Part shown: positions 4,611-40,654 of the stretch, piece by piece
How the letters are laid out: each line of letters starts with the position of its first letter
Numbering within the stretch: position 1 is the stretch's first letter
From: a virus
IMG/VR virus record: IMGVR_UViG_3300017917_002116
Span: 1 to 64,000 of that record
Strand: one strand, 5' to 3'
DNA length: 64,000 bases
Translations under genes and position numbers: made by a program
The notes under the pieces: model-generated
Told to the model about the DNA's origin: nothing
What the model saw: only the letters and a program-made list of their open reading frames with translations
Databases searched by the model: none

Positions 4611-5252
4611 TTAGGTGACACGGATACGTAAAGTATACACTACTTGTATCACGCGGTTCGCACTCTTTTGTACGGGGTGGAAAACAATATGACTGAGCAA
4701 ATAATTATTTGTGTTAGGTGCCGATCCCTTGCTCTTAAGTCCCAGTTCATTAAAGACAAACTCGCCCGTAAAGTCCGGTGCATTGTCCATGGCCAGCTGT
4801 TCCTTACTGTAGATGTTTCCCAAACTTGTTAAATTTGGTTCTGATTCCTCCAGGGTACAGGTTATAACTAGATCGGAATAATTTAAACCCTGTGTATGCA
4901 CCACTTCCATTTTGTTTCTACTTGTGTCGGGATTTAACACGGGGTCAATAAAGGGATCATTATCAACGATTTTAAAATAAGTTGGATTATACAATGCTGC
5001 CACTGTACCATTATTCATATTTGTGGTAACATCTTTATAGGTTATATTACCCGTTTCGTCAATAACTACGCCGCCGTTACCGAAATGCATCTCATAGATA
5101 TACATGTTTTTGTTACCAGATAACATATTTGCGGTAACTATACTCATGGTTTCTGGGTTGATAGCATTGTGCTTGTCCACAAAAACCTCTTTGGTCAGTG
5201 GATCCCAAATTTTAACATGTCCATCTATGTGAAAATTTACTGGTTCAATCAT
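4611..5252 (-). CDS. baseplate structural protein
   Basis: 213-aa ORF with IDGHVKIWD...KHNAI and C-terminal FNELGL...HIVFHPVQKSANR..QVVYTLRI; directly follows the giant wedge gene. Confidence 0.65.
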   Translation of the reverse strand: MIEPVNFHIDGHVKIWDPLTKEVFVDKHNAINPETMSIVTANMLSGNKNMYIYEMHFGNGGVVIDETGNITYKDVTTNMNNGTVAALYNPTYFKIVDNDPFIDPVLNPDTSRNKMEVVHTQGLNYSDLVITCTLEESEPNLTSLGNIYSKEQLAMDNAPDFTGEFVFNELGLKSKGSAPNTNNYLLSHIVFHPVQKSANRVIQVVYTLRIRVT

Positions 5253-8200: not shown

Positions 8201-11200
8201 GAACAGGTTTTAATGTAAACAATTTACCAGCACGTATGGTCTCTGAAACATATGCATTGATATAGAATTTTCTGTCTGGATCATCTGCGTCCAATGATTC
8301 TACTGTCCAGATGCCATTCAAACTTGCAGTCTTTGTTTCAACGTTAACCAATACAATCTTATCACCAACTGCTAGTTTGTGTGGCTTGTTTGTATAAATT
8401 CTTGCTTTGCTTGTATCTACCACACCAGGACATGCTTCCACAACGCCAACTTCTCTGTCAACAGTCTGCAATACTTGCCATGTTCCAGGCGTAAATCTGC
8501 TAAAACCCTCATCACTTAGATCTGGGTTTTTAGCACCATAATTTTCAACCAAGATATTAGGTAGATATGGCTCTTCTATATTATTGAACTTATCACTGTT
8601 ATTAGTCCATGTATTAGGTGATACTGTGGTTAATGAATAATATAATTTGCCATCTCGTCTAACAAGATCGTTAGGCTTATAGGTTGCTGTTTCATCATAA
8701 TGTTTAATAGACCACAACGGTTCATACTCTGGGTATAACTTGTCTATGTCTTCTAAATTTTTAATGATGTAATCTGTGTCACCTTGTATTACAGGACCAA
8801 CAGTAGGCAATTTACTATGGTTATTATTGTATGTATTGAATCTTAGTGTCTTACCATATGGTCTATATACCCAACGGCTACTATCATCTTTTATGTAGAT
8901 GAATTTGTCATTGGGCATTACGTCACGCTCAAACTTAATTACCTGCGGCTCTAATATCATGTCCGCAGTTCTAAGTTGGAACTCATAGTATTCAATGTTT
9001 TTTGTATTTCCGAACTCACCTGTACGCACCATGTATTCTTCGTAGGGTATTGTTCTAGAACCATCTTTGTGCGTCAGTGGCTCTAGGCTATTGAATACTT
9101 GTTTTGTTCCCTTGTTGTAAGTGATGGCATTTTTAAATAATACTTCGTTGCTTTCTTGTAAGAATAGCTGTCTTAGCTCTGGGTTTCTATTTAGACCAAA
9201 CTGCGCCCGGCTGGCTTCTAGCAACTTGTTATCATTTAGCACATTTTCAATATCAAGCAAGTTTCGGCCTGCTTCTGCCAACGTGTCGTAGTTTGGTATT
9301 AAATCAAGATTTACAAAAGCGTAACCTGGAACATAATATTTTCCTGTCCATTCTTGACTCTTCTTGCCTCCCAATATGAAGCTTCGTTTCGTTGTCCCCT
9401 GTTCTGGCAGGAAGTATGTGTCATTGAATATACTTCTAGAATCCAGGTACACCATACTTTCATAGGTAACAAACACTAGCTTAATTCCATATATAGGGTT
9501 GTTTGTATTTTTAGTTCTGACTCTAAATGGTTCATCTCTAGAAACCAACAAGTCTTTGCTGAATATTGGTTTACTAAATCTATCTACGACCTGTCCAACG
9601 TTTACATCTGTACCGGTTAAATTGTACAATTGATTATTATATGTCTTGATGACGATTCCGTCGGCGGCAGGATTTAGGTCAATATAATTGCCAGGTTCTA
9701 GAGGATCATTACTCCAGAATATAAACTGCTTGCCACTTAGCTGCCAGTTTCTTAGATCACCAAGCTCAACGTCATCAAAAACAAACCCAGTGTCTTCTAG
9801 ATATTTTCCATAACCTATGATAAAGTCATAGAGTTTTTGTCTATCTGTAAATTCCGTGCCATATCGCAATATTAATGGAGTTTTTATATAGGAATTCTTT
9901 TCTTTGATAACAAAGTCGCCCACTTTAATTGCAGATATTGTTGTTATAGGATTAGGTGCATAGTAGGTAAAATGTGTCTGCTCGTTGGTGAAGCCATAAA
10001 CATTCCAGCCACGGCCATTCCAAACTATACGCATGGCGGAATAAAATTCCTCTCGTTCTGGATAATGGTTTAGGGTCCTAACCTGATAGTTTTCTTCAGG
10101 AATAAACAATGAAACGCTTTGAGAGTTAGCACTTGTGCTTTGAATTCTTACGCTGTTTTTATTTGTAAAACCACTTAGCAAGAATTCCTTGTTAATAATT
10201 GTATTGTTTAACACATCGTAGACTTCTGTCTTAAAGTCTTTATTAATCAACACACAGAACTCAGAGTATAAACTTTCAATGCCGGCTGTAAAATTTAATG
10301 TGCCGTCTGTTTTTTCACTTCTATGATAATCATGTTCTATTTTTGGTGTCAACCAGAATTCTGTTGTTTTATCCAGCACCTGACCCCATTCATCGACATA
10401 GGTTTTTCCCGGAACCCAATGCGTGTTAACATATTCGGTTGGATTAACTAGGTATACGGTTTTAATTAGCGATGCAAGGCCGCGCTGTGTGCTCAAAAAT
10501 ACCTGCTCATATGGGCTGTAATATCCAGGTGCCCAATCTACGTCTAGTTGTTCAATAAACGGTGTCAGCCAGGTTAAATCAGTAGGTGGTAATAAATTGC
10601 CATCAGCATCTACAGGAAACTCTTCAGGTGCGGCCAGGTTGCGTGTTCTTGCGAACCATGGCTTGCAATCAATAGTTGGCGGTTCTGCAACATTGCCCAT
10701 TCTTAGTGCCGTCTCCAAGGCAGCTCGCTTAACAGGATCTGTCCAACTATAATATGTGTCCCACCATTCTGGCTTCAAGGTATAACCTAACATTTCCCAG
10801 GGATGTGTATGTGGTCTATCGGTGTCGTAATAATAATTATAGATCGCTCTCCAGCTTCCGATCACAGTGTTGCCATCATCACCAGTACCAATTTGATATA
10901 TGAATGTGAATGGATCTAAAGCATCATAGGTTGTATTTGCCAGCGTGTATAACTGTATATCCTGCATCCAAGAATACATTTCATTATTAGAAATTTCTTT
11001 AACTTCATTTCTATTCAAACGTGTAGCTCTAAAGCCACCTGGCATGTTTTTATATAAATTAGTTCTATCTAAGAATTTAACGTCTCTGGCAATACTGCTC
11101 CAAACAGCCTTTTCATATTCGTACAGTAATCGTTCAACATGGTTAAACGGATTACCATCTGCATCCACACCGTCTACTAGACAATGTCTTGTACCATCAT

Positions 11201-34781: not shown

Positions 34782-35630
34782 ATGACAACCGCAAATCCAC
34801 AAGCAAAACAATACCTAACGAACAGGGAATTACTAAAAGAAATACATCTGAGCAAGAATCTGTATAGCAGTTATTCCAAACCAGAATACTGTGATTATGA
34901 TCTAATTTTGCCAGATATTTCCAAAATCAACATACGAACAACGGCTGAGGCCAAGCGTAATCGTGCTCTACGGCTTAGTCAACAAGCTCTGGCAGAAGCA
35001 CAAAAAACTAACCCGAAAACCAAGTTGGCAGACGTCGAAATAGACTATAAAAAAGTAGCTAAGACAGACGTTGTATTCAGGATTATGACACATGATCATA
35101 TTCCCCTAGAACCCGGACGCAAAAAGACTCCCAAGAGTCGAGGCGACCATCATACCAAAGTAAATTTTCCACCATATCAACATTTTAAATTTGACGATAA
35201 CGATCAACTAATATGTGTGGGCAAAAGTCATTGGAAGGGTGATATAGACACTGGCGTGTTCTCTATGGAACACGGCACAATGACCAATAAACTAGCAAAG
35301 AGTTTTATGCTACTGGTTGAAAAATACAGTATGCGTTTTAACTGGCGCGGTTATACCTACGTAGACGAAATGCGTAGTCAAGCCTTGCTACAATTATCAC
35401 AGATAGGACTACAATTCGATGAATCAAAATCGCAGAACCCTTTTGCGTATTATACTGCCGCCATTGATAACAGTTTCACTCGTATCCTTAATATTGAGAA
35501 GAAAAACCAAATGATACGAGACGATCTCTTGATTGAGATCGGCAGTAACCCCAGCTTTACTCGTCAGTTCGAACATGAGTCCATGATCAAAGACGAGCGC
35601 GAGCGCATGGCTAACTTGAAAGATGAATAA
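34782..35630 (+). CDS. gp55: late-transcription sigma factor, T4 gp55-like
   Basis: YLTNRELL.EI, NWRGYTYVDEM, FDESKSQNPFAYYT..I.NSF.RILN.EKK; adjacent to gp47/gp46 as in T4. Confidence 0.88.
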   Translation: MTTANPQAKQYLTNRELLKEIHLSKNLYSSYSKPEYCDYDLILPDISKINIRTTAEAKRNRALRLSQQALAEAQKTNPKTKLADVEIDYKKVAKTDVVFRIMTHDHIPLEPGRKKTPKSRGDHHTKVNFPPYQHFKFDDNDQLICVGKSHWKGDIDTGVFSMEHGTMTNKLAKSFMLLVEKYSMRFNWRGYTYVDEMRSQALLQLSQIGLQFDESKSQNPFAYYTAAIDNSFTRILNIEKKNQMIRDDLLIEIGSNPSFTRQFEHESMIKDERERMANLKDE

Positions 35631-36649
35631 TGTCTGACCTCTTTAAACGTGCTGCCGTATTCACGGACATACATTTTGGTATGCGTCAAAACAGCAAGGC
35701 GCATAACGATGATTGTACAGATTTTGTAAAATGGTTCTGTGCCACTGCCAGAGAACATGATTGTGATGTAGCAATCTTCATGGGCGACTGGCATCACCAT
35801 CGTGCCACAGTTAATGTCAGTACCTTAAACTATACCGTGGATGCTATTGATTATATCAGCCGGCACTTTGAACGTTTCTTTTTTATTCCTGGCAATCACG
35901 ACCTCTATTATAGAGAGAAGCGTGACCTGAACAGTGTACCATTTATTCGAAATCAAAAGAACATTGTTTTGGTAAATGATATACACACCGAAGGTAGCGT
36001 TAGCCTTGTACCTTGGTTAGTGGGCGATGAGTGGACTAAGATGAAGCGACTGGACAGTCGCTATGTGTTTGGTCACTTTGAACTGCCCAGCTTTAAAATG
36101 AATGCCATGGTTGAAATGCCTGATCACGGCGGACTCAACAGTGAACATTTTCCCAATCAGGAATATGTGTTTAGTGGACACTTCCACTTGCGTCAGCAGC
36201 GCGGCAATGTTCACTATACTGGCAATGCCTTTCCGCATAACTATGCCGATGCTTGGGATGACAATCGTGGTATGATGATATTTGAGTGGGGCAGTGAACC
36301 CAAATACATTGCCTGGCCCGATGCACCAAAATTCAGAACTATAGATCTAACAAAATTGATCGAAGATCCAGCCAAGTATATGGATAAGAATACATTTATT
36401 CGTATTACTTGTGATGCAGATGTCAGCTATGAAGAAGCCACATTTTTAAAAGAGAACTGGCAAGAAGAATACAACCTGCGTGAAATTACACTAATACCCA
36501 GCAAGCGTGAAGAACACGCACAAGACTGGAGTGGTGATGTTCACTTCGAAAGTGTAGATCAGATTGTACTAACACAATTGGCAGCAATTGATAGTGATGT
36601 AGTTGATAAGCAAGTTCTTATTGACATTTATAATAGTTTAACTGTATAA
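35630..36649 (+). CDS. gp47: recombination endonuclease subunit (Mre11/SbcD-like), T4 gp47
   Basis: metallophosphoesterase motifs TDIHFG, GDWHH, GNHD, GHFE, SGHFH. Confidence 0.92.
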   Translation: MSDLFKRAAVFTDIHFGMRQNSKAHNDDCTDFVKWFCATAREHDCDVAIFMGDWHHHRATVNVSTLNYTVDAIDYISRHFERFFFIPGNHDLYYREKRDLNSVPFIRNQKNIVLVNDIHTEGSVSLVPWLVGDEWTKMKRLDSRYVFGHFELPSFKMNAMVEMPDHGGLNSEHFPNQEYVFSGHFHLRQQRGNVHYTGNAFPHNYADAWDDNRGMMIFEWGSEPKYIAWPDAPKFRTIDLTKLIEDPAKYMDKNTFIRITCDADVSYEEATFLKENWQEEYNLREITLIPSKREEHAQDWSGDVHFESVDQIVLTQLAAIDSDVVDKQVLIDIYNSLTV

Positions 36650-36657
36650 TAACCTAG

Positions 36658-38433
36658 ATGATTAAGATTAAAAATCTTACCATTCGCAACTTTCTCTCTG
36701 TAGGCAATGTTACCCAAGCACTAAGGTTTGATCAACATGGTTTAACTTTGGTCTTGGGTAATAACCTTGATCTTGGCGGAGATGGCAGCAGAAATGGTAC
36801 TGGCAAAACAACCATTGTTAATGCACTAAGCTATGCACTCTATGGCGGCGCTTTAACAAATATTCGCAAAGACAACCTCATCAATAAGACCAACAACAAA
36901 GGCATGTTGGTAACTGTTGAGTTTGACAGTAATGGTCATAGCTATCGCATTGAGCGCGGCCGCAAACCAAACGTTCTGCGGTTTATTGTAGACGATCAAG
37001 AACGTGATCAAGGGTCTACAGAAGAACAACAAGGCGAAAACAAAGAAACCCAAACAGAGATAGAAAAACTCTTGGGAATGAGTCACGACATGTTCAAACA
37101 CATTGTGGCGTTAAATACTTTTACTGAACCGTTCCTTAGCCTTAAGGCCAACGACCAGCGTAATATTATTGAACAACTATTAGGTATCACACAACTAAGC
37201 GAAAAGGCAGATCTGCTCAAAGACTTGATTAAGAACACCAAGGATCAGATCAAAGAAGAAGAATATCGTATAAAGGCTGTAACTGATGCAAACAATAAAA
37301 TTAAAACATCTATTGAAGATCTCGAGCGTCGTAGTCGTCTTTGGCAGGCCAAGCAGAGAGAAGATCTTGAGAAACTTGGGGCTACGATAAACGAACTACT
37401 GAACATAGACATTGAGCAAGAACTTGCCAATCACAAGGCTCTAGCAAAGTGGCGTGAGAACGAAAAGGAACTAAAGCGCCTTAACAAAGATCTTGCCACA
37501 CATCAGAGTGCAGTAAAGCGTGTAACACAACAATTAAGCGAGCTGGCTGGTGCACAGAGTAAGGCACTAGAACATAAATGTCATGCCTGTGGCCAAGATC
37601 TACATGATGAAACACAGGCCAGTATGATGTCTGAGTTAAACGAAGCCATCAGTCTACTGACTGCCGAACTTGAAAACGAGCAATCAAATATCAAACAAAT
37701 TGAAAAAAATATCAAGGAATTTGGTAAGATTGGCGTAACACCAAAAGTCAAATACGACAACATTGACGATGCTGTGAATCATAAGAGCACACTGGAAACC
37801 ATACAGGATCAGTTTGAACGTAGGCATCTTGATGTTGACCCCTATGTCGAACAAATAGATCATTTGAAAACAACCGCCATAGAAGAAGTTAATTTTGAAA
37901 CAATAAATCGTCTTACCAAGCTCAATGAGCACCAGGAATTCTTGTTGAAGTTGCTAACTAGTAAAGACAGTTTTGTTCGCAAGAGAATTATCGAACAAAA
38001 CCTGAGCTATCTAAATCACAGGCTAGCTTATTATTTGGAGAAATTGGCATTACCACATGAAGTTAAATTCCGCAGTGACCTAGAAGTTGATATTACTCAA
38101 CTGGGCCAAGAGTTTGACTTTGACAACCTGAGTCGTGGTGAGCGCAATAGATTGATCCTAGGTTTAAGCTGGGCATTCCGTGATGTGTTCGAAAGTCTAA
38201 ATCGACCACTCAATTTGCTGTTTATTGACGAAATGATTGACAGCGGCATGGACGCCAACGGTGTTGATAGCTCACTGGGCTTGTTGAAGAAAATGAGCAG
38301 AGAACAAAAGAAAAATATTTTCTTAATTAGTCACCGGGATGAACTGGTGGGCCGTGTAAATAACATACTACAAGTAGTTAAAGAAAACGGTTTTACTACA
38401 TTCAATACGGATGTAGAAATGGTAGAAGCATAA
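36658..38433 (+). CDS. gp46: recombination ATPase (Rad50/SbcC-like), T4 gp46
   Basis: Walker A NGTGKTT, coiled coil with CHACG zinc hook, LSRGE signature, LLFIDE Walker B, ISH. Confidence 0.93.
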   Translation: MIKIKNLTIRNFLSVGNVTQALRFDQHGLTLVLGNNLDLGGDGSRNGTGKTTIVNALSYALYGGALTNIRKDNLINKTNNKGMLVTVEFDSNGHSYRIERGRKPNVLRFIVDDQERDQGSTEEQQGENKETQTEIEKLLGMSHDMFKHIVALNTFTEPFLSLKANDQRNIIEQLLGITQLSEKADLLKDLIKNTKDQIKEEEYRIKAVTDANNKIKTSIEDLERRSRLWQAKQREDLEKLGATINELLNIDIEQELANHKALAKWRENEKELKRLNKDLATHQSAVKRVTQQLSELAGAQSKALEHKCHACGQDLHDETQASMMSELNEAISLLTAELENEQSNIKQIEKNIKEFGKIGVTPKVKYDNIDDAVNHKSTLETIQDQFERRHLDVDPYVEQIDHLKTTAIEEVNFETINRLTKLNEHQEFLLKLLTSKDSFVRKRIIEQNLSYLNHRLAYYLEKLALPHEVKFRSDLEVDITQLGQEFDFDNLSRGERNRLILGLSWAFRDVFESLNRPLNLLFIDEMIDSGMDANGVDSSLGLLKKMSREQKKNIFLISHRDELVGRVNNILQVVKENGFTTFNTDVEMVEA

Positions 38434-38442
38434 GGACAATAA

Positions 38443-38649
38443 ATGACAGAAGAAATTGGAATCCCAAACCCACACGAACACATTGTACAACAATATGAAA
38501 TCTATTTGGCAGAACATCAGAAGTTTACTGAGAAGGGTGTCAAGGCCGCTGCGGGTCGCGCACGCAAAGCCCTACAAGAAATGAGCAAGGCTATTAAACT
38601 GCGCCGTAAAGAAATCACAGATCAAAAGGCTGCATTAACTGCTAAATGA
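38443..38649 (+). CDS. small basic Hc1-like (histone H1-like) protein
   Basis: KFTEKGVKAAAGRARKALQEMSK..K.RRKEI resembles the Hc1 family core. Confidence 0.65.
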   Translation: MTEEIGIPNPHEHIVQQYEIYLAEHQKFTEKGVKAAAGRARKALQEMSKAIKLRRKEITDQKAALTAK

Positions 38650-39074
38650 CATGGCTCTATCAAGGCAACGTTATTGAAGAATTGCCTGAAGATTGTGTTG
38701 GTTTTGTCTACATCATTACTAACACAATCACAGGCCGCATGTATATTGGCAAAAAACTGGCAAAATTTAGTAAAACCACCTATAAAACTATAAAACTCAA
38801 AAACGGCAAAAAGAAACGTAAAAAAATTCGTGGCAAAATAGAATCAGACTGGCAAACCTACTACGGCTCCAACGACGAACTTAAACGTGACGTCGAACAA
38901 CTAGGCGCAGACAAATTTATCCGTGAAATACTACATTACTGCAATAGTAAGGCACTAGCATCATACTACGAGGCTAAAGAACAATTTGATAGGCGAGTAC
39001 TGGAATCAACAGACTACTATAATGGGCACATACAGGTTCGCGTTCACGGCTCCCACATTATAAACAAAATTTAA
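38646..39074 (+). CDS. GIY-YIG endonuclease (T4 endonuclease II-like)
   Basis: GFVYIITN...GRMYIGKK, WQTYYGS, REIL, conserved E and YYN; Lys-rich insert. Confidence 0.85.
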   Translation: MTWLYQGNVIEELPEDCVGFVYIITNTITGRMYIGKKLAKFSKTTYKTIKLKNGKKKRKKIRGKIESDWQTYYGSNDELKRDVEQLGADKFIREILHYCNSKALASYYEAKEQFDRRVLESTDYYNGHIQVRVHGSHIINKI

Positions 39075-39079
39075 GACAC

Positions 39080-39567
39080 TACTGATAATGCTCGCACCGG
39101 CAAGTTGATTAGGTGCCTGAATCCCTGGTGATGTCGCGGGGTAGGAATTTCCGAGCAGTAGCGGAGACATGATTGCCACTATCCTGGTGTTGCCAGGACG
39201 AAGCACTAGACTTGAAAGGTGCTGGCAAGTGTATGTATAGTCAAAAAGAGCAGGCAACGGTGAGCTATTACGACCTGCAAGAATTAGGGTGTTAATCTAT
39301 CAGCTAACTAATTCTGCGCCAAAGTGCTAGGTAAAAAGGTACAGCATGACCGCCTTTACCCTATTAGGGTTCTAGTGATAGATTGCGATAATGGGCCTCT
39401 GACAGGTATTTCATTATTTTTCATTTAGCCCTTAACAGGGCTAAGTGCGACTGCAAAACCTTGACAAATATCTTTAATTAGAGTACCTTGTTGAAATATC
39501 AAAGAAGACTAAAAAGAATTGTGTTTTGCGTAAGCAAAATATAATTCTAGTTGTTCTCCGAACAACT
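39080..39567 (+). ncRNA. candidate large structured non-coding RNA
   Basis: ~490 nt with no credible ORF; about 12 helices, a multi-stem junction, a loop-downstream pseudoknot, and G-U pairs valid only on the + strand. Confidence 0.6.
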
Positions 39568-39809
39568 TATTCGAAACCCTGTGTTAGAACTTGTTTGGGC
39601 TTTACACCCCTATCTATATTAATCTTATCCTTAAGGATATTCGTGAATATTTTGCGCTCGTCATAGGTTAAATTCCAAAGATCATTATAACTTTGTCCCG
39701 AGTATATGGCCAGCGATGCAATATCTTCTATAATGGCTTTTGTATCTTGTTCTAGTGATTTAAGTAGTCCTAGAATCTCTGGGCCTGATTTCAGACTCAA
39801 AAGCCTCAT
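39567..39809 (-). CDS. baseplate/tail assembly protein, gp51-like (probably also the C-terminal part of a frameshift product)
   Basis: SYNDLWNLTYDERK motif; overlaps the upstream stop in the -1 frame. Confidence 0.65.
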   Translation of the reverse strand: MRLLSLKSGPEILGLLKSLEQDTKAIIEDIASLAIYSGQSYNDLWNLTYDERKIFTNILKDKINIDRGVKPKQVLTQGFE

Positions 39810-40654
39810 GCGAAAAAAGTTGTAGGATTAAGATCTAGACTGGACTTGTAAATCTTGCCGCATTTTTGGCACTGTACATCAAAGTCTTTTTTCACACCAT
39901 AGTTATTGGTGGCCATGATGTTTTCTTCTAATTTTTTGTACTCGGGTCTGCTTAGATCACGTACCCATTCCTCAATCATCTTGCTGTCGGACACCACTGT
40001 ACCATCAGGCAACAGCACTGTTTCTATACTGTCAGCGACCACCTTAATACTTTGATCTGTCAAGGCCTGATAGCTTTTGCTTAGTATGTCTACTTTTTCT
40101 TTTTCACTGGCATTGCGTTGTTCTGCAATCTGTATGTTTCTGATTTGTTCGTACTGTACCCAGTTCAAATCCAGTAGATGCTTTACTGTAACTGGCTTGA
40201 CATATACCTTGACGCCACTGTCATGCTCAACAGGTGGCACATCATCCAGCGTTTTGATACTGGCTATCAAGGAATTTAAGTCTACACTTACATCGTTTTT
40301 TACAGCTTCTCCGCAATCACAGGTTGTACTAACGTCTAGCTTTTCACCATAGGTGCAACGTTTAACAGCGACAAGAATAGCATCCAGGTCTGCGCTGGGC
40401 ATGTTTTCTGGATCTTTGATGCAGGGCGCACAACTCTTTATTAACTCAGCAATGGCATTGCCGTTTAGTAATGCATCGGCATTTTTTAACATGAGTTCAT
40501 CTTTGGCAGTCAGAGGATAAACTGGAATTTCTCCCATGTCATTAAGCTCTGCAGGTTTTTGAGCATAACCCTTGCCCCTACTAGGTAATTTAATCCAAAG
40601 ACCGGGTTTTCTAAAATAGGCCTTTAAAGGATTAACTTGTTGTTGATTTTCCAC
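39806..40654 (-). CDS. baseplate hub assembly chaperone, T4 gp26-like
   Basis: NPL..YFR.P...IKLPS.G, PLTAKDEL.LKN.DALLNG, DLDAILVA, two CxC/CxxC motifs, ends NPTTFF; GTG start after GGAG SD. Confidence 0.8.
   Translation of the reverse strand: MENQQQVNPLKAYFRKPGLWIKLPSRGKGYAQKPAELNDMGEIPVYPLTAKDELMLKNADALLNGNAIAELIKSCAPCIKDPENMPSADLDAILVAVKRCTYGEKLDVSTTCDCGEAVKNDVSVDLNSLIASIKTLDDVPPVEHDSGVKVYVKPVTVKHLLDLNWVQYEQIRNIQIAEQRNASEKEKVDILSKSYQALTDQSIKVVADSIETVLLPDGTVVSDSKMIEEWVRDLSRPEYKKLEENIMATNNYGVKKDFDVQCQKCGKIYKSSLDLNPTTFFA

What the first reader, a model, noticed from the sequence alone, without database searches (positions are those of the whole stretch)
39075..39567. Large pseudoknotted non-coding RNA candidate directly behind a GIY-YIG nuclease gene
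Seen: this is by far the longest gene-free gap in a tightly packed window, and it is almost all helices. They are gcacc/ggtgc (39094/39112); tttccg/cggaga (39148/39162); a junction closed by ttgcca/tggcaa (39173/39223) enclosing tcctggt/gccagga (39182/39192) and gcac/gtgc (39203/39219); gcagg/cctgc (39250/39274); agaattag/ctaattct (39280/39308); ggtaaa/tttacc (39330/39355); ataatg/cattat (39388/39412); an 11-bp catttagccct/agggctaagtg (39422/39437); a 15-bp stem with a GUAA tetraloop (39515-39548); and agttgttc/gaacaact (39549/39560). The loop of the 39280 stem (aatctatca, 39294-39302) is perfectly complementary to tgatagatt (39376-39384), which makes a pseudoknot. Imperfect pairs are repeatedly G-U on the + strand (A-C on the - strand), which favours a + strand RNA over DNA cruciforms. 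No terminator separates it from the GIY-YIG gene. Inference: an ornate phage ncRNA, possibly forming a ribonucleoprotein with the adjacent GIY-YIG nuclease (which has a Lys-rich insert) or with the Hc1-like protein. This layout recalls nuclease + cis-encoded RNA systems such as IscB/omegaRNA or HEARO. I do not recognise it as a named family.
Basis: partly seen in the sequence, partly recalled or inferred. Interest (0 to 1): 0.88.

Follow-up and report, generated by a model that had tools for sequence, protein, structure and literature searches.

The report
Full-length Polynucleobacter-1 twin-box phage RNA
The gene-free gap behind a small nuclease gene of this uncultured T4-like phage encodes a real, multiply knotted non-coding RNA; its first third is an orphan motif catalogued in 2010 (Polynucleobacter-1), the rest is uncatalogued, it is probably not a guide for the nuclease, and its job is still unknown.

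Summary
Window 39089-39473 (+) is a structured RNA, followed by two conserved hairpins up to 39567. Its 5' 144 nt match Rfam RF01718 (Polynucleobacter-1) at 55.1 bits, above the cut-off of 37.

The remaining ~250 nt are not in Rfam but are conserved and covary in relatives from uncultured phage contigs. Across 46 non-redundant sequences, 93% of cells are paired (38-43% in slid controls) and 50 of 74 pairs show compensatory changes. Invariant G-U pairs place the RNA on the + strand. Folding energy alone is not significant (z = -1.2).

The family carries two "twin" modules with the same 7-mer twice, identical in 111 loci. In this window's subclade the twins are degenerate (TGACAGG and TGACAAA).

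The link to the GIY-YIG gene is tight (63 of 65 RNA-selected loci) but not obligatory:
- Cultured phages have the nuclease and no RNA.
- A bacterial island has the RNA and no nuclease.
- No nuclease residue tracks the box letters.

The guide-RNA/RNP reading is therefore not supported. Function remains unknown; my best guess is an autonomous scaffold RNA read at the twin boxes by one common partner.

This scan has already reported the same RNA family many times on other DNA.

The parts
38646..39074 (+). GIY-YIG-only nuclease gene (142 aa, SegE-type domain), the usual upstream neighbour of the RNA
   Evidence: Pfam PF19835 SegE_GIY-YIG, E 1.6e-32. More than 579 relatives in IMG/VR. It lies directly upstream of the RNA in 56, and upstream with an insert in 7, of 65 RNA-selected loci.
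39078..39088 (+). Short conserved leader (acTACTGAtaa) between the stop codon and the RNA
   Evidence: Invariant in the 6 sequences of the window's subclade. A similar UACUACUGAAAC precedes one bacterial copy, NC_009379.1; the second copy, G138, reads UACUACCGAAAC. Role unknown.
39089..39232 (+). 5' domain = Rfam RF01718 Polynucleobacter-1. It comprises P1, P2, P3, the closing helix 39173-78/39223-28 and inner hairpins 39182-98 and 39202-23.
   Evidence: cmscan 55.1 bits (cut-off 37), E 5e-9, model positions 1-141 of 141. Helices covary.
39089..39102 (+). PK0: 5' pseudoknot, tgct 39089-92 pairing with ggca 39099-102 inside the P1 loop. Not in the Rfam model.
   Evidence: Four pairs, 90% paired, 2 with compensatory changes (helix 1).
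39250..39278 (+). P5 hairpin (gcagg/cctgc)
   Evidence: Compensatory changes within the subclade (columns 195-199 with 219-223).
39280..39315 (+). P6 hairpin (agaattag/ctaattct). Its loop 39294-39302 forms PK1.
   Evidence: helix 10: 6 of 7 pairs compensatory. Subclade variants AATTAG/CTAATT, AATCTC/GAGATT and AATATCC/GGATATT.
39376..39384 (+). 3' strand of pseudoknot PK1 (tgatagatt), pairing with 39294-39302
   Evidence: helix 11: 6 of 6 pairs with compensatory changes, 91% paired.
39327..39375 (+). P9 (ctagg 39327-31 with ttcta-g 39371-75). It encloses P8 (39336-40 with 39352-56), the invariant core GGTACAGCATGACCGCC (39338-54) and a small variable hairpin (39358-70).
   Evidence: P8 and P9 covary (helices 13 and 14). 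GGTA..G...ACCGCC is invariant or nearly so in 46 sequences. Model R1 of this domain scores 84 bits here.
39383..39417 (+). Twin module 1: sub-box ttGCGAt 39383-89; hairpin ataatg 39388-93 with cattat 39412-17; in its loop cctc 39396-99 followed by box 1, TGACAGG, at 39400-06
   Evidence: Columns 402-406 and 416-427 of A2 change in step with module 2.
39422..39447 (+). P10, an 11-bp hairpin between the twin modules
   Evidence: helix 15: 97% paired, 4 pairs compensatory.
39446..39468 (+). Twin module 2: sub-box gtGCGAc 39446-52; cct 39459-61 followed by box 2, TGACAAA, at 39462-68. The cct may pair with agg 39143-45 of the 5' domain.
   Evidence: Identical covariation of the two boxes: 41 of 46 sequences in A2, and 111 loci by pattern. 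The five non-identical pairs are all in this window's subclade. The tentative long-range pairing is helix 3.
39469..39514 (+). Variable, A/U-rich spacer
   Evidence: Poorly conserved even among the closest relatives.
39515..39548 (+). Hairpin B, a 15-bp stem with a GC-GUAA-GC tip. Terminator-like.
   Evidence: Terminator scan. A hairpin with a GC-GNRA-GC tip holds this position in phage and bacterial copies.
39549..39567 (+). Hairpin C (agttgttc/gaacaact), abutting the stop codon of the convergent gene 39567-39809 (-)
   Evidence: helix 16: 7 of 8 pairs compensatory.

Best explanation
Shown: window 39089-39473 (+), plus two 3' hairpins up to 39567, is a full-length but divergent member of the Polynucleobacter-1 RNA family. 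This is a roughly 385-480-nt non-coding RNA with at least ten helices and three pseudoknots. Rfam models only its first 141 positions.

Inferred: the RNA is made as the 3' end of the gp55-gp47-gp46-Hc1-GIY-YIG transcript. There is no terminator and no T4-type late promoter upstream of it, and in many relatives the RNA overlaps the nuclease stop codon. Transcription probably ends at hairpins B and C, where it meets the convergent baseplate genes.

Inferred, my committed guess: it is an RNA gene in its own right, a folded scaffold. The knotted core holds out two single-stranded 'twin' modules (GYGAC-like sub-box, spacer, CUC or UCU, then a 7-mer). One common sequence-specific partner, either a dimeric protein or two copies of a short nucleic-acid target, reads both modules. 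That would explain why both boxes always change together in the main clade.

It is not a guide or obligate cofactor of the neighbouring GIY-YIG nuclease.
For: Identity:
- RF01718 hit at 55.1 bits against a cut-off of 37, full model length.
- 62 of 80 loci chosen by the nuclease carry RF01718. Eleven more carry only the 3' core.

Structure:
- In A2 (46 non-redundant sequences), 93.2% of cells are paired, against 38-43% with slid partners.
- 50 of 74 pairs, and 511 cells, show changes on both sides. The shuffled mean is 146, and 0 of 500 shuffles reach the observed value.

Strand:
- Invariant G-U pairs.
- The + strand minimum free energy is 14 kcal/mol lower than that of the - strand.

Co-transcription:
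- The RNA starts between 6 nt before and 46 nt after the end of the GIY-YIG gene in most loci.
- No exact TATAAATA occurs within -400 to +400 of the RNA start in 52 loci.
- Hairpin B is terminator-like.

Twin modules:
- Columns 421/489, 425/493 and 427/495 are identical in 40 of 40 main-clade sequences.
- 111 loci carry CTC+7-mer followed 50-58 nt later by TCT plus the same 7-mer.
- Bacterial copies have a different box (AGCGAAA), again present twice.
- No complementary partner was found in cis or in a 99%-complete 345-kb phage genome.

Independence from the nuclease.

Copy number: one copy per genome in 5 large contigs.
Against: - No expression data.
- The partner that reads the twin boxes has not been identified.
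- Physical linkage to the GIY-YIG gene is very tight (63 of 65 RNA-selected loci). This is more than I would expect for unrelated genes. However, the whole gp47-gp46...baseplate block is syntenic, and a 0-46-nt gap leaves little room for insertions.
- In this window's subclade the twins are not identical (TGACAGG and TGACAAA). This copy also lacks the GTTAT 5' strand of pseudoknot PK2 that its closest relatives have. The 'common reader' logic is therefore weakest for this very locus.
- Single-sequence folding energy is not better than shuffles (z = -1.2).
Confidence: 0.55

Rival explanations
1. Nuclease-RNA system. The RNA is a cofactor or guide of the adjacent GIY-YIG-only nuclease, which has no DNA-binding domain of its own, in the manner of IscB/omegaRNA or TnpB/reRNA.
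For: - Tight adjacency: 56 loci directly adjacent and 7 with an insert, of 65 RNA-selected loci.
- The RNA begins at or over the stop codon in many loci.
- The protein is a bare catalytic domain with a Lys-rich insert.
- A variable stretch (39469-39514) lies near the 3' end.
Against: - Homologues at 38-53% identity in cultured phages have no RNA genome-wide, tested with both the Rfam 5' model and my 3' model.
- Homologues at about 70% identity in a 117-kb contig (34% complete) and a 15-kb contig lack it.
- The bacterial copy has no GIY-YIG gene within a 19-kb locus.
- The Lys-rich insert does not depend on the RNA.
- No protein column predicts the box letters; the highest normalised mutual information is 0.26-0.50, which is the level of phylogenetic signal.
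- No match to the box or its complement stands out in a near-complete genome.
- GIY-YIG is not a RuvC or HNH nuclease, and there is no HEARO hit.
Confidence: 0.1
2. Cis-acting replication (or packaging) signal. In this model a structured pre-primer RNA, working like ColE1 RNA II or the T4 origin R-loops, marks where DNA copying starts. The twin boxes would work like hepadnavirus DR1/DR2, identical repeats that let a primer be moved from one site to the other. The bacterial islands would be satellites that borrow the signal.
For: - One copy per genome.
- Identical direct repeats are what template-switch mechanisms require (established for DR1/DR2; here by analogy only).
- In the bacterial island with a tyrosine recombinase, no protein tested has a homologue in the phage DNA searched, so the RNA is the only element found in common.
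- The locus follows the recombination-nuclease genes gp47 and gp46.
Against: - Nothing here tests replication.
- The cumulative GC-skew minimum of the contig lies at 34-36 kb, where gene orientation flips, not at 39.3 kb. The contig is also only about 32% complete.
- The strong RNA-type covariation over 400 nt is more than known origin transcripts show.
- The island lies next to a Zorya defence operon and could be something else entirely.
Confidence: 0.13
3. A 3'-UTR element acting in cis on the operon. It would be a nuclease-resistant cap or insulator at the point where the early/middle + strand operon meets the convergent late baseplate genes.
For: - It sits at the end of the + strand unit facing - strand genes in the window and in most relatives.
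- Terminator-like hairpins lie at its 3' end.
- There is no upstream late promoter.
Against: - A stable hairpin would suffice for that job. About 400 nt with invariant single-stranded blocks, three pseudoknots and co-varying twin boxes points to specific recognition.
- In the bacterium the RNA precedes a gene rather than ending an operon.
- In about 10% of phage loci a ~1-kb ORF separates the RNA from the GIY-YIG gene.
Confidence: 0.1
4. Self-cleaving ribozyme or riboswitch of a new class.
For: Its size, its pseudoknots and its invariant core GGUAC..ACCGCC are typical of catalytic or ligand-binding RNAs.
Against: - No Rfam ribozyme or riboswitch hit at E <= 10.
- In phages there is no downstream gene on the same strand to regulate.
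- No conserved candidate cleavage site was identified.
Confidence: 0.05

Closest known systems
Polynucleobacter-1 RNA motif (Rfam RF01718; Weinberg et al. 2010, Genome Biol 11:R31, PMC2864571)
   Same: - Window 39089-39232 matches the whole 141-position model above the curated cut-off.
- The context matches. The paper's supplement says most examples lie downstream of one gene family with a possible cyanophage P-SSM2 homologue.
- The flanks printed in the paper's own alignment file already contain the 3' domain and the twin boxes, unannotated.
   Different: - The published motif is 141 nt, of unknown function, and 'was not detected in any sequenced purified phage'. Here it is the 5' third of a ~385-480-nt RNA on a 115-kb T4-like phage contig.
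- The 3' domain (P5-P10, PK1, PK2, twin modules, hairpins B and C) and the 5' pseudoknot PK0 are not in the model.
- The 3' core occurs in 11 loci where the Rfam model finds nothing.
- This window's subclade scores low (55 bits, against 80-120 in the main clade) and has degenerate twins.
IscB/omegaRNA (HEARO), TnpB/reRNA
   Same: A small nuclease gene next to a large structured RNA on the same strand.
   Different: - The nuclease fold differs (GIY-YIG, not RuvC/HNH).
- There is no HEARO hit.
- There are no transposon ends and no guide segment that matches flanking DNA.
- The RNA and the nuclease each occur without the other.
Large ornate bacterial and phage RNAs of unknown function (GOLLD, ROOL, OLE)
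   Same: Size class, many helices and pseudoknots, phage association, and function unknown.
   Different: No sequence or structure match in Rfam. The twin-box feature is not, to my knowledge, described for them (my own knowledge, not tested).
ColE1 RNA II pre-primer; hepadnavirus DR1/DR2 repeats
   Same: By analogy only: a long folded RNA that primes DNA synthesis, and short identical direct repeats kept identical because a primer is moved between them.
   Different: No homology and no evidence of priming here. This is a 'works like' candidate, not a membership claim.

Membership tests
Rfam RF01718 Polynucleobacter-1 | Score at or above the curated gathering cut-off over the full covariance model | tested here: met
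   55.1 bits against 37; model positions 1-141 of 141; E 5e-9 for the 64-kb window and 7.9e-11 for the 1-kb region.
Rfam RF01718 Polynucleobacter-1 | The consensus helices of the motif (P1, P2, P3, the closing helix, two inner hairpins) are present and covary | tested here: met
   P1, P3, the closing helix and both inner hairpins are 88-100% paired in 46 sequences. P1, P3, the closing helix and one inner hairpin show compensatory changes across the 46 sequences; the other inner hairpin, invariant there, varies compensatorily within the window's subclade. P2 is weak in this copy: cmscan marks two non-canonical pairs.
Rfam RF01718 Polynucleobacter-1 | Genomic context: downstream of the GOS11034 / PSSM2_218-like gene family | tested here: inconclusive
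   The upstream gene is a SegE-type GIY-YIG gene with 442 homologues in cultured phages, mostly cyanophages, where it is annotated 'NAD synthetase' (T4-like GC 213). I did not check that this is the same family as GOS11034 / PSSM2_218.
IscB/omegaRNA (HEARO) or TnpB/reRNA guide systems | RNA matches the HEARO/omegaRNA family, or carries a terminal guide next to a transposon end | tested here: not met
   No HEARO hit at E <= 10. The only hypervariable stretch (39469-39514) is internal, between box 2 and hairpin B. No complement of the boxes was found in a near-complete genome.
IscB/omegaRNA (HEARO) or TnpB/reRNA guide systems | Obligate co-occurrence of the nuclease and the RNA | tested here: not met
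   Nuclease without RNA: Melnitz, phiN3, P-SSM7, G015 and G004. RNA without nuclease: the bacterial locus L296.
Group I intron, RNase P, tmRNA, GOLLD, ROOL | Match to the family covariance model | tested here: not met
   cmscan of 38900-39900 with permissive filters at E <= 10 gave only RF01718 and two chance-level hits. ARAGORN found no tRNA or tmRNA.
Intrinsic terminator / plain 3' UTR | A G+C-rich hairpin followed by a U run is the only conserved element | tested here: not met
   Hairpin B is terminator-like, but about 385 nt upstream of it are conserved and covary.

The most novel reading that the evidence does not exclude
The RNA would be the structured pre-primer of a phage replication origin. 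Its twin boxes would be primer-transfer repeats, like hepadnavirus DR1/DR2. Small recombinase-bearing bacterial islands that share nothing with the phages but this RNA would be satellites that hijack the signal. This would be a new kind of origin for the large aquatic T4-like phages, whose origins are unknown.
Probability: 0.07. Interest if true: 0.85.

Novelty: new variant of a known kind. Interest (0 to 1): 0.55.

Why it matters
Large, multiply knotted RNAs with invariant cores usually do something specific. Very few are known from phages, and none, to my knowledge, from T4-like giant phages of lakes and oceans.

This family is common: several hundred IMG/VR contigs carry it, with one copy per genome. 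It has stood in Rfam since 2010 as a 141-nt orphan. In fact it is about three times longer, and it carries a rare signature: two copies of a short word that always change together. That signature gives experimenters a handle. They could mutate one box, both boxes, or swap box types between phages.

For this particular window the gain is smaller. It adds a divergent subclade in which the twins have partly decayed, which helps to define what is essential. It also removes the tempting but unsupported 'RNA-guided GIY-YIG nuclease' reading.

Tried and rejected
- **Nucleotide search of cultured phages.** blastn in 'distant' mode against 50,697 phage records, using the window's region and a main-clade RNA, gave no match. 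The family is therefore not present in cultured phages at >=65-70% identity.
- **Cis partner for the twin boxes.** I searched for reverse complements within +/-3 kb, ran a wobble-aware 6-mer scan with shuffled controls, and computed mutual information against all alignment columns. Only a G/U-rich stretch matched, and it pairs with almost anything. Two secondary correlations (columns 232 and 97) are at the level of phylogenetic signal.
- **Trans partner in a 99%-complete 345-kb genome.** The genome's own box is no more frequent than other box types. The single 13-of-14 match lies inside a coding region.
No protein column tracks the box letters. Near-identical proteins always have the same box, so such pairs carry no information.
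- **Translational readings.** In the main-clade box types recovered, letters 4-6 read UGA or UAA, with one exception (AGATCAA). The 50-58-nt spacing recalls the bypassed gap in T4 gene 60. I rejected this reading because no conserved ORF reaches box 1 and the landing site would also be followed by a stop codon.
- **CsrA-site reading.** UAC..GGAUG resembles the SELEX consensus for CsrA binding (from my own memory). I rejected it because about half the boxes have AGA rather than GGA.
- **17-mer scan of bacterial genomes.** It returned 71 hits, about the number expected by chance. Only 2 are real copies of the RNA, both on short or probably mis-binned phage contigs.
- **GC skew as an origin test.** Inconclusive.
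- **No complex or structure prediction was run.** No protein-protein claim is made.
Full report
**What is there**

The window is part of a 115-kb uncultured virus contig, about 32% complete, with T4-like genes. Around the finding the order is:
- late sigma factor gp55 (34782-35630);
- gp47/SbcD (35630-36649);
- gp46/SbcC (36658-38433);
- a 68-aa Hc1-like protein (38443-38649);
- a 142-aa SegE-type GIY-YIG-only protein (38646-39074);
- the gap;
- on the minus strand, an 80-aa ORF and a baseplate-hub protein.

The gap is the longest ORF-free stretch of the window.

**Identity**

A scan of all Rfam families gives one hit in 64 kb. RF01718, Polynucleobacter-1, matches 39089-39232 (+) at 55.1 bits against a cut-off of 37, over the full model. 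A permissive scan of 38900-39900 adds nothing credible: no HEARO, group I, RNase P, GOLLD or ROOL. There is no tRNA or tmRNA.

The motif was described by Weinberg et al. 2010 (PMC2864571) as a 141-nt candidate RNA of unknown function from freshwater and estuary metagenomes and one Polynucleobacter genome. The supplement says most examples lie downstream of one gene family with a possible cyanophage homologue. It also says the motif was not seen in any purified phage, and that its 3' half is 'not always detected'.

**The RNA is three times longer than the catalogued motif**

The nuclease protein has more than 579 relatives in IMG/VR. Five close relatives align over the whole 490-nt gap at 82% mean column identity, with visible compensatory changes.

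Of the 80 best loci, 62 carry RF01718. In most it starts between 6 nt before and 46 nt after the nuclease stop codon.

I aligned 46 non-redundant sequences from the RNA start to +480 (A2). The same architecture runs through about 400 nt in all of them, with invariant blocks: GGTAC.GG...ACCGCC, TTTGCCC-loop-GGGCAAAG, and GTGAC.

I wrote down a structure of 74 pairs in 16 helices and counted it:
- 93.2% of cells are paired, against 38-43% when partners are slid by 1-3 columns.
- 50 pairs and 511 cells have changes on both sides. The shuffled mean is 146, and 0 of 500 shuffles reach the observed value.
- Every helix, apart from one invariant inner hairpin of the Rfam motif, has compensatory changes.

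This includes three pseudoknots:
- PK0 (39089-92 with 39099-102), which is new relative to Rfam.
- PK2, in which the strand before the core pairs with ACAAC inside the core loop.

Several G-U pairs are invariant (46/46, 44/46 and 40/46). That fits an RNA on the + strand and not DNA cruciforms or a minus-strand RNA. Single-sequence folding energy is not significant (z = -1.16 on +, -1.23 on -), so the case rests on comparison.

**The 3' domain is the more widespread part**

Eleven of the 18 RF01718-negative loci still have the 3' core. A covariance model of that domain (R1) finds them at 64-109 bits, and finds the window at 84 bits. At least 73 of 79 usable nuclease-selected loci therefore carry the RNA.

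**Twin modules**

Two stretches, one on each side of hairpin P10, change in step by identity rather than by complementarity. Each consists of a GYGAC-like sub-box, a 5-7-nt spacer, two letters, CUC (first module) or UCU (second module), and then a 7-mer.

- Columns 421/489, 425/493 and 427/495 are identical in 40 of 40 main-clade sequences.
- A pattern search finds 111 loci with the same 7-mer twice, 50-58 nt apart.
- The letters follow RGAURAD, with three variable positions.
- Bacterial copies use another word (AGCGAAA), again twice.

I noticed this feature before reading the scan's notes. Earlier agents call it 'twin boxes', and I use their name.

Box 1 sits in a hairpin loop. In the window this is ataatg 39388-93 with cattat 39412-17. 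The pyrimidines before box 2 may pair with GGA of the 5' domain (3 pairs, one compensatory; tentative).

I found no complementary partner in the RNA, within +/-3 kb, or in a 99%-complete 345-kb genome.

In this window's subclade the twins are only partly alike. The window has TGACAGG (39400-06) and TGACAAA (39462-68), and all five non-identical pairs in A2 belong to this subclade. The window also lacks the GTTAT that forms the 5' strand of PK2 in its nearest relatives, and the partner strand has changed as well.

**Relation to the nuclease**

Seen from the RNA side, I fetched loci by a 17-mer of the core alone. Of 67 loci with enough upstream sequence, the nuclease gene is directly upstream in 56 and upstream with a 0.2-0.9-kb insert in 7. 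Of the remaining four:
- two are too short to tell;
- one is a chance match inside a gene;
- one is a divergent RNA with no nuclease gene.

So the linkage is strong. Several results nevertheless argue against a functional dependence:
- The whole block is syntenic. gp46 is upstream in 64 of 67 loci, and the baseplate hub is downstream on the other strand in 41 of 63. Adjacency may therefore be inherited.
- The nuclease family is widespread in cultured T4-like phages: 442 records, mostly cyanophages, annotated 'NAD synthetase'. In Melnitz, phiN3 and P-SSM7 the gene is followed at once by other genes. Neither the Rfam model nor R1 finds the RNA anywhere in those genomes.
- Two contigs with about 70%-identical nucleases also lack the RNA.
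- The Lys-rich insert is present with and without the RNA.
- No protein column predicts the box letters beyond phylogenetic signal.
- The Hc1-like gene is a neighbour in only 7 of 67 loci.

**A bacterial copy**

A pattern taken from the Polynucleobacter sequence in the 2010 alignment hits 3 of 401 sampled Burkholderiales genomes. In one of them, a 1.9-Mb genome, the RNA scores 81.6 bits for RF01718 and has the full architecture, including hairpins B and C.

It lies on the same strand downstream of a complete Zorya type I defence operon, ZorA-D, and two small ORFs. It is followed by a 224-aa acidic protein and a 212-aa tyrosine recombinase. The 224-aa protein has only six homologue clusters among 5.8 billion proteins.

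There is no GIY-YIG gene in the locus. None of the island's proteins has a homologue in the phage DNA I held. The RNA is sporadic, present in 1 of 33 genomes of that family, which fits a mobile island.

**How it probably works**

Shown: it is a folded + strand RNA, present once per genome, at the end of a + strand operon. It has no T4-type late promoter within 400 nt upstream in 52 loci, and it has terminator-like hairpins at its 3' end.

Inferred: it is transcribed with the nuclease mRNA and may be processed from it.

My committed guess is that the knotted core is a scaffold. It presents two equivalent single-stranded modules to one sequence-specific partner, and this keeps the two boxes identical.

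Rivals:
- a guide or cofactor of the nuclease (0.10);
- a replication or packaging signal with primer-transfer repeats (0.13);
- a protective 3' UTR (0.10);
- a ribozyme or riboswitch (0.05).

None of these can be settled without expression and binding data.

**Novelty and score**

The 5' third is a known Rfam family, so this is not an unnamed RNA. The full-length form, its pseudoknots and the twin modules are not in Rfam or, as far as the paper search shows, in the literature: only the 2010 paper mentions the motif.

This scan has already reported the same family on many other genomes. The present window adds a divergent subclade rather than a discovery. Interest is moderate to good for the family and modest for this instance.

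Noticed in passing
L296 (G138:C4:63000-82000), RNA at 9210-9718 (-): The bacterial copy of the RNA lies just downstream, on the same strand, of a complete Zorya type I defence operon (ZorA-D). It is followed by a very rare 224-aa acidic protein (6 homologue clusters in 5.8 billion proteins) and a 212-aa catalytic-domain-only tyrosine recombinase.
   Followed up: partly
window 39310-39330 and 39344-39350: This copy lacks the GTTAT that forms the 5' strand of pseudoknot PK2 in its four closest relatives, and the partner strand reads GCATGAC instead of GCGTAAC. GUGC 39324-27 could pair with GCAU 39344-47 as a shifted replacement; this was not tested.
   Followed up: no
A2 columns 512-524 and 575-604 (e.g. 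L015 about 4840-4925): In many main-clade members a segment after box 2 (UCGCUUCGCUC, sometimes present twice) is complementary to the conserved loop of hairpin B (GAGCG-NAA-GCGA). This suggests a fourth pseudoknot or an alternative fold. The window's subclade lacks both sequences.
   Followed up: no
L015, L018, L020, L044, L063 and about 7 RNA-selected loci: In about 10% of loci an ORF of 260-340 aa (about 0.8-1 kb) is inserted between the nuclease gene and the RNA. Its identity was not examined.
   Followed up: no
L196 about 1550-2100: A divergent RNA shares the core CAGGTACCGGACAACCGCCTGTG and a P10-like hairpin, but has no GIY-YIG gene within 1.8 kb upstream.
   Followed up: no
GenBank records of cyanophages and others (e.g. 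NC_015290.1 PSSM7_210, NC_028945.1 gp310): Homologues of the 142-aa GIY-YIG protein are widely annotated 'NAD synthetase' (also PHROG 447). Pfam assigns them to the SegE GIY-YIG domain, so this looks like a propagated misannotation.
   Followed up: partly
window 39078-39088; L296 9722-9740 (-): A short leader, CUACUGA, just upstream of the RNA is shared by the window's subclade and one bacterial copy (NC_009379.1); the G138 copy reads CUACCGA. It could be a processing site or part of a promoter.
   Followed up: no
G000 contig, 32-36 kb: The cumulative GC skew of the 115-kb contig has its minimum at 34-36 kb, where gene orientation and AT skew flip. That is 3-5 kb upstream of the RNA.
   Followed up: partly
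window 39806-39820 (-): Earlier notes of this scan propose a -1 frameshift site, T TTT TTC, joining the baseplate-hub ORF to the 80-aa ORF that abuts hairpin C. I did not examine it.
   Followed up: no
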